DNA from: Octopus vulgaris
Lineage: Eukaryota
Reading direction: 5' to 3'
NCBI GenBank assembly: GCA_951406725.2
Contig: OX597816.1
Span: forward strand, 121,024,001-121,088,000
Length of the DNA: 64,000 nt
Shown: positions 5,858 to 44,070 of the stretch, in pieces
Layout: each line of letters starts with the position of its first letter
How positions within the stretch are numbered: the first letter of the stretch is position 1
Program-made: the position numbers and the translations under genes
Notes under the pieces: generated by a model
Seen by the model: the letters and a program-made list of their open reading frames with translations, nothing else
The model's database searches: none
Told to the model about the DNA's origin: nothing

Positions 5858-5938
5858 GAGTTTCACGATCCCGTTCGACAGACTGTTGTGAATCCCAACT
5901 GTCCGACGAACGGGAACGTGAAACTCAGAGTAGCAGTT
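5858..5938. ncRNA. Head-to-head hammerhead ribozyme-like pair
   Basis: Plus: AACTGT-CCGACGA-ACG ggaa CGT-GAAA-CTCAGAG-TA-GCAGTT (5897-5938). Minus: CAACAGT-CTGTCGA-ACG ggat CGT-GAAA-CTC (5888-5858). Confidence 0.65.
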
Positions 5939-6053
5939 TTTTGTGATATTTTTGTGATGTTGAAGCTTTAATAATAAAGCATATTACTCTACCTCCGGTA
6001 TTAGAGTACTATTTTTGCCAACCTTGTTTCACATTTATGTGCTTATTCTGGTA

Positions 6054-6141
6054 CACACACACACACACACACACACACACACACACACACACACACACAC
6101 ACACACACACACACACACACACACACACACACACACACACA
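6054..6141. repeat. (CA)n microsatellite
   Basis: Direct inspection. Confidence 0.95.
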
Positions 6142-6195
6142 GATAAAATAATTTGTGTAAAAATCAATAAGAAGAATACTCCTAATGAGAGTCTA

Positions 6196-6350
6196 ATATT
6201 ATTATAAATGATTCATACTACATACAATATAATAATTTCACGTACATAAGTATGTTCATCAGGCGCTGATGAACGCACTCATGTACGTTAAACTATTAGT
6301 AGCGCATATAACATGTAGCATGAAACATTTATTGTAAGATATATATATAT
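6196..6350. ncRNA. Head-to-head hammerhead ribozyme-like pair in an inverted repeat
   Basis: CTGATGA on plus (6266-6272) and minus (6262-6256) around a central GCG(C); both are followed by an ACRYAC/GTACGT stem II; minus copy has GAAA, plus copy has TAAA-CTATTAG-TA-GCGC. Confidence 0.65.
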
Positions 6351-6352
6351 AT

Positions 6353-7302
6353 ACAGACATGACAGAAGTTAGTAGACACCCCATAAAACATCATTTTATG
6401 TTTATTCTCACTTGTAAAGGTTTATTACTTGACATTTTTATGCTTCAGTTTCTATATGTAACTGTTTAATCCTGCCATGTACAAAAGAAGCCTTGGAACT
6501 GTCTAAATTTCAAAGAGGCTGTATTGTGGATCATTCTGAAGATGGACATAGTAGCACGTAAAATTACAGAAAATCTTGGGATCCCGCTTTCTACAGTTAT
6601 TAGAATGATTGTGCAATTCACCAGAGAAGATAAGGAGTCCACATCACCTCACCCAGATCAACCAGGGCCTTCTGATAAGACCCTTCTCTTTGTTAAGAGA
6701 AGTGTGGAAGATAATCCTCATTGCAAGGCCTTTGACATAGCAGAACAAGTTGATGTCGGTCCTAGAACAGCTGTCAAGCATCTCCACAAACTTGGTTACT
6801 ATGGCAGGGCAGCAAGAAGGAAACCACTTCTTTGAACAGCCAACATCAAGCAGAGAAAAGATTAGGCCAATGAGATGGTGGAGAGGCCACTAGCATTTTG
6901 GAACACTGTCATATTCTCTGATGAATCCAGGTTTTCTATATTTCCTGACAGTGGTCGAGTGTGGGTCTGGAGACTCTGTGATCAAGAATTTGATGTGGAA
7001 AGATTGCAGCCATGTTTGATCAGAGCTGGTAGAGTGTGAGGGAAACATAAACTCAGATAAATATGTGCCTATATTGCAGAAAGGACTTCTTCCAATCTTC
7101 TCTAGACTCTTTATTTACGGAACATGGCTAAAATGACACAAGATTTGTTGGATGAGAATGACATTAAAAAGCTTTCATAGACAAGCCAGTTACCAGATAT
7201 GAACCCTATTGAACAGCTCTGGGACATAATGGACAGGACACTTCATAAAAAGAATAAGAAAGCATCTTCAAAGCCAGATCTTCTGAGATTATTGCATGAA
7301 AC
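6353..7302 (+). mobile_element. Degenerate Tc1 transposon, 3'-truncated
   Basis: Begins TA-CAG; HTH-like region ([20 protein letters not shown]), IFSDES and PDMNPIEQLW DDE motifs; stops and frameshifts. Confidence 0.85.
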
Positions 7303-7449
7303 TTGTTGTTGTTGTCATTATTATTATTATTATTATTATTATTATTATTTATTATTATTATTATTATTATTGTTATTGTTGTTGTTGTTGTTGTTGCTGC
7401 TGCTGCTGCTGCTGCTGCTGTTGTTGTTGTTGTTGTTGTTATTAATATT

Positions 7450-42522: not shown

Positions 42523-42606
42523 ATTTCTTGCCAATAGAGAAAGAGCCGGTTTCTAACCTGGATCCAACCAAGGCTCCTTCTTTTGAATTTCAACATCAAC
42601 AACAGG
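42523..42606 (+). CDS. Candidate internal coding exon (phase 1-1; FLPIEKEPVSNLDPTKAPSFEFQHQQQ)
   Basis: Acceptor ttttatttcaag, donor CAGG|gtatgt, 84 nt, only one frame open; the donor overlaps a (GTAT)n repeat and could be fortuitous. Confidence 0.4.
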
Positions 42607-42810
42607 GTATGTATGTATGTATGTATGTATGTATGTATGTATGTATGTATGTATGTATGTATGTATGTATGTATGTATGTATGTATGTATGTATGTATGT
42701 ATGTATGTATGTATGTATGTATGTATGTATGTATGTATGTATGTATGTATGTATGTATGTATGTATGTATGTATGTATGCATGCATGTATGCATGTATGT
42801 ATGTATGTAT
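42607..42810. repeat. (TATG)n microsatellite
   Basis: Direct inspection. Confidence 0.95.
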
Positions 42811-42974
42811 GTTACTTTCTCCTAGATAGACTGCCTTCGCAGTCTATATACAATATACACACACACGCACAAAGTTTAAAATGCAATATATACAATACAT
42901 ACATACAAACAAACACACACACACACACATACACACACACACACACATACATACACACTCCACACGCACGTGCA

Positions 42975-43320
42975 CAAACACACGTTGTTGAATGGCCGTT
43001 GACAACGCTGCAGTTCCTCCGCCCTTTGACGGGTCTTATTTTTTTTGTTCCGCAGAGTATTCAACAAACACCCACCTCACTAAGCAAGCCTGGTGGGGAT
43101 GCAAGTTTAGCCAACGACGACCCGACCATGCAACAGGTTGTACTTGACTATATGGTACCAGTAGCAGCCAAGAGCGACCTGATATGGACTTATACCAGGT
43201 TTTCATTGATCTAACAAAAGCGTTTGATTCTATCAATAGAATATGCACTTTGGGAGACCTGAAAAAGCTAGGATGCCCTGAAAAATTTGTGAGAATGCTT
43301 AGATAATTTCATGACAAGAT
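42975..43320 (+). mobile_element. RTE-like LINE fragment
   Basis: FIDLTKAFDSINR...LKKLGCPEKFVRML RT motif at ~43200-43310. Confidence 0.7.
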
Positions 43321-43385
43321 CTGTATATATATATATATATATATATATATATATATATATATATATACAAACAGTTTTATAATTG

Positions 43386-43530
43386 CTTCACCACATACCG
43401 AAATTTAGAAATAGCAGCCAAAACTAGCTATTTCTCTACCATAAGAAAATCTCCTAGACAACAATACTCAACAATGTTAGAGAAATAGCTAGTTTTGGTT
43501 GCTATTTCTAGATTTCGGTAAGTGGTGAAG
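43386..43530. repeat. ~53-bp near-perfect inverted repeat
   Basis: 43386-43438 versus 43478-43530. Confidence 0.8.
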
Positions 43531-43929
43531 TATATTTTTTTGATGAACCCTAATTATAATTATACTCATAATTATAAAAAAATTTGTTTAAGTTTACCGA
43601 TACTGGTTCTTTTAACATGCCGAACTACTTGGTAAAATTATTAATTATTAATTAATTAATTTTACCTTTTATTATATATATATAGAATATAATTAAGATT
43701 CATTTGAATTAGGTACTTAAATTGAGGCACGTTGTTAGGTTGATCTAATTTGCACACCCAAACAATATCAGGTGAATATCAAACTCTGTGCGGAAGTGTT
43801 TGCACTTGATATTCTTGTAGTGTATGCAGATAACACGACCCAGCCGAGTGAAGAGATCCGCTCTTTGTTGTTCAGACAAATTCTTTCTCTAATATTTCCG
43901 AAGTGCAGATTCCACGATAGATAGATAAA

Positions 43930-44070
43930 ATATAAATGAGTAGCAAAAATGTATAGATGTCATTTCATTTCGGCCGTTTCAAGCGACTCCTTTTCATTAA
44001 TCAATTAAAGGAGTCGTTTGAAACAGCCGTAATAAATTGACACCTGTACATCTTTGTTACTCATTTATAT
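43930..44070. ncRNA. Inverted repeat with degenerate hammerhead-like halves
   Basis: GAAA-CAGCCG-TA (plus) and GAAA-CGGCCG-AA (minus, palindromic stem III); minus core remnant ATGAAAA. Confidence 0.4.

What the first reader, a model, noticed from the sequence alone, without database searches (positions are those of the whole stretch)
5858..44070. Recurrent two-strand architecture: back-to-back hammerheads in four unrelated sequence families
Seen: four inverted repeats of different sequence (5858-5938, 6196-6350, 17693-17806, 43930-44070) each centre just 5' of a hammerhead-like core, so one core reads outward on each strand. In at least two, a central palindrome (GCGC, AAACGTTT) could serve as the 5' strand of stem I for both. 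The arms have diverged from each other. Established: PLE pseudo-LTRs carry minimal hammerheads and can be inverted; paired opposite-polarity hammerheads are typical of viroid-like RNAs. Inference: either a class of small non-autonomous elements that self-cleave in both polarities, or a PLE template-switching mechanism that reproducibly inverts at stem I.
Basis: partly seen in the sequence, partly recalled or inferred. Interest (0 to 1): 0.75.

Follow-up and report, generated by a model that had tools for sequence, protein, structure and literature searches.

The report
Mirror-image Penelope retrotransposon insertion stumps
The four hairpins are real but ordinary: each is a short, decayed mirror-image insertion of the ribozyme-bearing end of a Penelope-type jumping gene, a layout already described for this class, likely rebuilt at every landing rather than copied as a self-cutting RNA element.

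Summary
The four inverted repeats are real and multicopy. Each is the 3' end (pLTR) of a different endonuclease-bearing Penelope-like element, inserted head-to-head: one arm ends at (TA)n, the other carries the PLE 'tail'. All four families run upstream into GIY-YIG ORFs. None of the four window sites holds two intact hammerheads. Site 4 folds inside stem II and lacks the CUGANGA core; every other arm has a core change or deletion. Genome-wide there are 2,929 back-to-back cores against 463 in the control. In four of six (sub)families, arm ends pile up 5-18 nt above the core, about 25-32 nt below a TATA-like box, likely the RNA 5' end; in two they scatter. Junctions vary, either arm may be longer, and both arms share their subfamily variants, so the palindromes are likely rebuilt per insertion from one RNA source. 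Arm-to-arm pairing beats the hammerhead fold by 20-75 kcal/mol. A pile-up at the ribozyme cut site in one family did not replicate clearly. The layout is in print (Arkhipova 2013, Cervera 2014, Craig 2021), and this scan has noted it in several other genomes.

The parts
5858..5891 (-). Site 1 inverted arm of family F1 (about -10 to +25 from C3); core A6U, 3' part lost
5891..6053 (+). Site 1 long arm of F1 (Neptune-type PLE 3' end with tail), ends at (CA)n
5897..5938 (+). Type I hammerhead with C at core position 4 (CCGACGA 5903-5909, GAAA 5920-5923, predicted cut after 5932); stems 6/3/3 bp
6145..6262 (-). Site 2 long arm of family F2 with tail; core intact but cleavage triplet and 3' stem I deleted
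6266..6340 (+). Site 2 short arm of F2; CTGATGA 6266-6272, G12U at 6289; ends at (TA)n
17670..17751 (-). Site 3 short arm of family F3; C3.A8 mismatch and A13U
17748..17856 (+). Site 3 long arm of F3 (U3-A8 hammerhead family; here TTGATGA 17753-17759); tail interrupted by another repeat at about 17858
43690..44009 (-). Site 4 long arm of family F4 (+36 to +376 from C3); only the 3' half of the hammerhead; tail of about 260 nt
43991..44070 (+). Site 4 short arm of F4 (+35 to +114); GAAA and stem III only, no CUGANGA; ends at (TA)n

Best explanation
The four sites are dead, 5'-truncated insertions of four different endonuclease-bearing Penelope-like retrotransposons, each made of two head-to-head copies of the element's hammerhead-bearing end, likely built anew at each insertion from one RNA source. 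Shown: family identity, link to GIY-YIG ORFs, one long and one short 3' end, varied junctions, arms sharing subfamily variants, and a pile-up of arm 5' ends just above the core in four of six (sub)families. Inferred: the element's enzyme cuts both strands of a (TA)n target. Each cut end primes reverse transcription at one of two internal start sites just downstream of the 5' pLTR hammerhead (long and short end). Both cDNAs run to the RNA 5' end, a start site about 25-32 nt below a TATA-like box, or stop earlier. Their ends join through 2-4 nt of microhomology, often a native self-complementary AGCT or CTAG. Back-to-back cores are a by-product of the hammerhead lying just inside the transcript start. 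Odds: PLE stump identity 0.95; pile-up marks the RNA 5' end 0.7; two cDNAs rather than snap-back 0.55.
For: Multicopy: 471, 40, 280 and 1,275 candidates, 40 scored each. ORF link: F3 lies downstream of RT plus GIY-YIG on the same strand in L245 and L237. F1, F2 and F4 lie downstream of Neptune-type linker or EN pieces: L289, L293 (F1), L294 (F4), L300, L301, L303, L305, L306 (F2), and 3 of 5 long F1C copies. Tail asymmetry: the inverted arm stops at the short end in 55 of 56 F5 and 35 of 35 F1C inverted loci. Samples chosen by 3' sequence only carry an adjacent inverted arm in 18 of 38 F1, 18 of 37 F2, 9 of 29 F3, 25 of 39 F4, 56 of 69 F5 and 35 of 50 F1C copies. Pile-up of long-arm 5' ends: F1 22 ends in 500 nt at risk (-30..-1) against 1 in 461 (-119..-31); F2 13 in 214 against 1 in 756; F5 23 of 69 exactly at -6, one at -7, none from -8 to -18; F1C 14 of 50 at -14..-18. 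Either arm can reach further 5' (F5 20 long, 19 short, 17 equal; F1C 8, 15, 12). F1C arms agree at five subfamily sites: discordant 0/17, 0/18, 1/23, 2/29, 0/32 against 8.2, 3.6, 11.8, 14.1, 15.9 expected for random pairing. In vitro a PLE protein cuts and extends both strands and starts at two internal sites that define the tail (PMC11167929, parts 1-2 of 4 read). Head-to-head inverted pLTRs with junction palindromes, TATA plus Inr and a one-sided tail are described (PMC3846280, passages).
Against: No RNA 5' end was measured; TATA and Inr spacings were counted by eye and vary. F3 has a well-spaced TATA and Inr yet shows no pile-up (2 in 325 against 8 in 1,711), and F4 shows none. F2, F5 and F1C also have a pyrimidine tract plus AG at the pile-up, so a splice junction is not excluded there. 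Arm agreement could come from later gene conversion between arms or from snap-back copying. Asymmetry could come from later deletions at palindrome centres. The commonest F5 junctions can also be drawn as 1-2 bp snap-backs with 2-4 nt loops. No parent ORF was found for F5. Old-family samples are the 40 best-scoring hits, not random draws.
Confidence: 0.7

Rival explanations
1. Snap-back: one cDNA runs to the RNA 5' end, folds on itself and is copied into a hairpin DNA; the endonuclease then trims the tail from one arm during integration.
For: Arms share subfamily variants. Frequent F5 junctions fit 1-2 bp fold-backs of a cDNA ending at -6. PMC3846280 proposes self-priming, on an antisense template; PMC8557442 ascribes the one-sided tail to endonuclease resolution (passages).
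Against: The short arm reaches further 5' than the long arm as often as the reverse (F5 19 against 20, F1C 15 against 8, F4 11 against 10). Loop-free palindromic junctions with a 4-nt overlap are common and are easier to make from two cDNA ends.
Confidence: 0.25
2. A non-autonomous palindromic element that is copied as a unit and self-cleaves in both polarities, like viroid-like RNAs.
For: Identical perfect junctions recur in two young families. 27 of 69 F5 and 16 of 50 F1C insertions keep both cores within 25 nt of the centre.
Against: Most junctions differ. The same centre recurs in three F1C subfamilies with both arms changed in step. The families extend into ORFs. The arm-to-arm hairpin is 20-75 kcal/mol more stable than the hammerhead fold. 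No window site has two intact cores.
Confidence: 0.03
3. Palindromes arose after insertion by host replication template switching at native hairpins next to the hammerhead.
For: The F2 parent has a native imperfect hairpin across its core, and the site 4 centre lies in a native quasi-palindrome.
Against: The inverted arm ends at the family's fixed short 3' end followed by (TA)n, not at the long end or in flanking DNA. Up to 81% of young insertions are inverted.
Confidence: 0.02

Closest known systems
EN+ Penelope-like insertion units with inverted pLTR and one-sided tail (Arkhipova et al. 2013, PMC3846280; Craig et al. 2021, PMC8557442; passages read)
   Same: Head-to-head inverted 5'-truncated copy, palindrome at the junction, tail on one arm, TATA and Inr-like motifs in the pLTR, (TA)n targets, C-terminal GIY-YIG ORF.
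   Different: Here most copies are pLTR-only stumps, numbering in the thousands. Tails are longer than 30-40 nt (about 65-70 in F1C and F5, about 260 in F4). The junction position is measured and is sharply fixed in some families.
[quoted passage not shown]
   Same: Type I topology, palindromic helix III (F3, F4), the U3-A8 core variant (F3), and dual motifs close together on opposite strands, reported there at about 100-700 bp.
   Different: Spacing here is often 0-25 nt. F1, F2 and F5 have 3-4 bp monomeric helix III. The G10.1-C11.1 pair is replaced by A-U, G.U or a mismatch. F1 has subfamilies with C at position 4, a change known from a viroid (PMC3088659, passage).
Poseidon element of Anolis (PAc) in vitro (Frangieh et al. 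2024, PMC11167929; parts 1-2 of 4 read)
   Same: Both target strands cut and extended, two internal RT start sites defining the tail, AT-rich target, ribozyme cleavage not needed for insertion.
   Different: Different clade; that work did not follow inverted junctions or run-off at the RNA 5' end.
Viroid-like RNAs with paired opposite-polarity ribozymes, and animal non-LTR retrozymes (bioRxiv 10.64898/2026.07.22.740005, part 1 of 5 read; viroid features recalled)
   Same: Hammerhead motifs on both strands; PLE link for retrozymes.
   Different: The two motifs here are one sequence mirrored, not two ribozymes. No tandem monomers at these sites, no fixed unit, and the hairpin blocks the fold.

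Membership tests
EN+ Penelope-like element | RT plus C-terminal GIY-YIG ORF upstream of the pLTR on the same strand | tested here: met
   F3 RT and EN; F1, F2, F4 linker or EN pieces matching P0001 and P0002. All copies seen are broken; no intact ORF was recovered.
EN+ Penelope-like element | Inverted 5'-truncated copy adjacent at the 5' end | tested here: met
   31-81% of copies sampled by 3' sequence
EN+ Penelope-like element | Tail on one arm only | tested here: met
   55 of 56 F5 and 35 of 35 F1C inverted loci; window sites 2-4
EN+ Penelope-like element | Hammerhead motif in the pLTR | tested here: met
   Core and stems conserved across copies of F1-F4; one-sided G.U/A-U/G-C changes in F4 stem II
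EN+ Penelope-like element | Target-site duplication | tested here: inconclusive
   Both ends lie in (TA)n or (CA)n, so a duplication cannot be read
Neptune clade (F1, F2, F4) | Cys-rich linker before GIY-YIG and placement in an RT tree | tested here: inconclusive
   Linker and EN match unnamed proteins P0001-P0004. The clade name rests on motifs recalled from memory; no tree with named references was built. F3 is a different lineage, closer to the ORF at window 52979-54745.
Active hammerhead ribozyme pair | Intact CUGANGA, GAAA and UH with three stems on both strands | tested here: not met
   0 of 4 window sites; met at sequence level in many young F5 and F1C copies elsewhere
Active hammerhead ribozyme pair | Self-cleavage of the RNA | not testable with these tools
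   Folding predicts the arm-to-arm hairpin wins
Non-autonomous unit (MITE-like or viroid-like) | One fixed internal junction and arm-specific variants shared across loci | tested here: not met
   Varied junctions; arms vary in step within loci
Non-LTR retrozyme | Head-to-tail tandem monomers each with a hammerhead | tested here: not met
   No tandem monomers at the four sites or in 5 long F1C copies

The most novel reading that the evidence does not exclude
The thousands of stumps are a fossil record of the PLE reaction: both strands of the cut target prime on the same RNA at two fixed internal sites, both cDNAs run off its 5' end like retroviral strong-stop DNA, and the junction maps that end to the nucleotide. 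In most families this end is the transcription start; in family F4 some templates had first been cut by their own hammerhead, which would be in vivo evidence of PLE ribozyme cleavage.
Probability: 0.3. Interest if true: 0.55.

Novelty: new member of a known kind. Interest (0 to 1): 0.27.

Why it matters
How PLEs form tandem and inverted structures is stated to be open (PMC8557442, PMC11167929). Young high-copy families with nucleotide-sharp junctions give exact predictions for RNA 5' ends and for an in vitro twin-priming test. For annotation, back-to-back hammerhead cores in animal DNA (about 2,500 above background in this genome) should be read as PLE stumps, not viroid-like elements. If transcribed they would form long double-stranded hairpins. 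The four window copies themselves are decayed and have no evident function.

Tried and rejected
Rfam scan of the window at E up to 5: the 150 listed matches (of 298) were nearly all miRNA models, mostly on microsatellites; no hammerhead family was among them. Pfam on the Neptune-type fragments gave nothing above cut-off. Cleavage-site pile-up in F4: 5 of 39 long-arm ends at +75..77, predicted cut +76 (P 4e-5 against uniform, 0.006 after scanning; 3 of the 5 had already been seen when the idea arose). It did not replicate clearly: 2 of 63 new loci, or 2 of 38 in range, P 0.11, though 8 of 38 fell in +69..76. A pattern test found 1 of 124 exact-core copies against 0 and 0 at control positions, with low power. 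F5 had 0 of 69 and F1C 1 of 50 ends at their cut sites. Kept as inconclusive. An untemplated G from the RNA cap at F5 junctions is confounded by the inverted arm's own G and was dropped. DNA searches with young-family tails failed because common words are skipped; exact patterns were used instead. Expression: no RNA holder listed; contigs cannot show ends or strand. The folding penalty for site 2 is approximate because the script did not place stem I in register. RNAalifold on F3 and F4 arms gave no consensus fold; pairs were counted directly. Literature searches for a twin-priming or run-off account of PLE inverted junctions listed none; subscription papers are not covered and supplements were not read.

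Full report
Observation. All four inverted repeats exist at the stated places. They exceed chance: 8 non-microsatellite inverted repeats in the window against 0-1 in each of 10 block shuffles, and fold z-scores of -6.4 to -17.7. The window lies in a 2.8-Gb animal genome rich in microsatellites.

State of the ribozymes. Positions are counted from C3 of the core. Site 1: the + arm is a complete type I hammerhead with C at position 4, the majority state in this family (18 of 23 arms); the - arm has A6U and is cut off. Site 2: the family is canonical, but the + arm has G12U and the - arm has lost the cleavage triplet. Site 3: the family core is UUGAUAA, the U3-A8 variant (29 of 36 unique arms), with a palindromic helix III; both window arms break the 3-8 pair or GAAA. 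Site 4: the family has a long stem II of about 12 bp with G.U/A-U/G-C changes, and the window palindrome folds inside its loop, so no CUGANGA is present. No site holds two intact motifs. In any transcript through a palindrome the arms pair with each other; forcing the hammerhead fold costs 31, about 20 and 55 kcal/mol at sites 1-3 and about 75 in two young copies.

Families and parents. Each palindrome is multicopy. Following copies upstream, F3 leads to RT and GIY-YIG on the same strand (L245, L237). F1, F2 and F4 lead to Cys-rich linker and endonuclease pieces matching proteins P0001 and P0002. I call these Neptune-type from recalled motifs; no tree was built. In every family one arm ends at a fixed short point followed by (TA)n and the other runs on into a tail, the PLE signature described in PMC8557442 and PMC3846280 (passages read).

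TCRTCAG-N(0-25)-CTGAYGA occurs at 2,929 sites against 463 for the reversed control. Of the first 15 loci, 11 were true mirrored hammerhead arms and 4 were chance or simple repeats. The 11 belong to two young families: F1C, a subfamily of F1 with both CTGATGA and CCGAYGA cores (4,793 exact tail matches), and F5, absent from the window (1,703).

Where the inversions fall. I sampled copies by 3' sequence only and mapped the 5' end of each arm. Dropped before counting: the query source loci L116, L146, L176 and L308, the window's own F2 copy L171, and duplicates L168 and L411. Two automatic calls (L169, L311) were corrected by hand. F1: 22 of 38 long-arm ends at -30..-1 and 1 at -119..-31. F2: 13 of 37 at -15..-1 and 1 at -119..-16. 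F3 and F4: scattered over hundreds of bases; 1 of 29 F3 and 0 of 39 F4 copies have both arms ending within 30 nt above the core. F5: 23 of 69 exactly at -6, with a hard edge. F1C: 14 of 50 at -14..-18. So the centre is reproducible in four (sub)families and not in two. A TATA-like box lies about 25-32 nt above the pile-up in F1, F1C, F2 and F5, with an Inr-like motif at it in F1 and F1C (counted by eye). PMC3846280 reports TATA and Inr in pLTRs. I infer that the pile-up is the RNA 5' end. A splice acceptor at the same spot is possible in F2, F5 and F1C, and F3 has the motifs without the pile-up.

Unit copying or rebuilding. Junctions vary by a few bases around a self-complementary AGCT (F5) or CTAG (F1C), with perfect palindromes as the commonest single class. 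Either arm may reach further 5' (F5 20 long, 19 short, 17 equal; F1C 8, 15, 12). Both arms of a locus carry the same subfamily variants: in F1C, 3 discordant site-calls in 119 against about 54 expected for random pairing. The same centre recurs in three F1C subfamilies. This fits rebuilding at each insertion from one RNA source and does not fit a master palindrome.

Mechanism. In vitro, a PLE protein cuts and extends both target strands and starts at two internal sites that define the tail; ribozyme cleavage is not needed (PMC11167929, parts 1-2 of 4). The simplest account is twin priming at the long and short start sites just downstream of the 5' pLTR hammerhead, run-off at the RNA 5' end, and joining by microhomology. 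Snap-back with endonuclease trimming, close to the self-priming idea of PMC3846280, is the main rival. Gene conversion and later central deletions blur the distinction.

Cleavage-site lead. In F4, 5 of 39 long-arm ends lay within 1 nt of the predicted cut, but 3 of them had prompted the idea. In 63 new loci only 2 did (P 0.11), and a low-power pattern test gave 1 of 124 against 0 and 0. This remains open.

Comparison and verdict. Inverted pLTRs with junction palindromes (PMC3846280), hammerheads in pLTRs, opposite-strand pairs and the U3-A8 variant (PMC4209133, parts 1-2 of 4) are in print; C at position 4 is known from a viroid (PMC3088659, passages and section 8). I found no paper stating twin priming or 5'-end run-off for PLE junctions (open-access library only, supplements not read). 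Earlier notes of this scan reach the same reading in several other genomes; they are unchecked and not counted as support. The finding is a real, ordinary product of known elements, with a modest mechanistic gain.

Noticed in passing
window 43368-43680: A fifth mirror-image stump directly beside site 4: arms 43386-43530 (80% complementary), the + arm running on to (TA)n. Multicopy in other fetched loci, often inverted with varied centres. It has a GAAA and palindromic stem III-like stretch, but no core was located.
   Followed up: partly
window 52219-54745 (+): Near-complete PLE ORF in two frames (RT by Pfam, GIY-YIG with CxxxxCxxC linker); related to the F3 parent at 30-45% identity, not its source.
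   Followed up: partly
window 46299-46703 (-): GIY-YIG endonuclease fragment of another PLE family, followed by a pyrimidine-rich tract.
   Followed up: partly
window 62707-63674 (+): Mariner-type transposase remnant in two frames (Pfam HTH_48, Transposase_1).
   Followed up: no
window 37713-38411 (+): LINE-like C-terminal ORF fragment (RTE-like by recalled motifs; no Pfam hit).
   Followed up: no
window 34104-34293 and 40997-41028: Two further inverted repeats with no match among fetched loci for the palindromic part; not identified.
   Followed up: partly
L377-L425, L456-L495 (family F5): Young high-copy family with a 6-bp stem I hammerhead and a U.U mismatch at the base of stem II; 81% of sampled insertions are inverted stumps; parent ORF not found.
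   Followed up: partly
F5 loci, e.g. L379, L381, L384: One G in the 3' strand of stem I is missing in one arm only in about 13 of 103 arms; real variant or assembly error in palindromes is unresolved.
   Followed up: no
F1 subfamilies (L426-L455, L496-L515): Core position 4 switches between U and C among recently active subfamilies while loop II stays GNRA, which suggests cleavage speed is not under tight selection.
   Followed up: partly
L178, L191 (family F3): Endonuclease region inverted directly upstream of the forward 3' end, with nearly the same breakpoint in two loci; resembles LINE-1 5' inversions.
   Followed up: no
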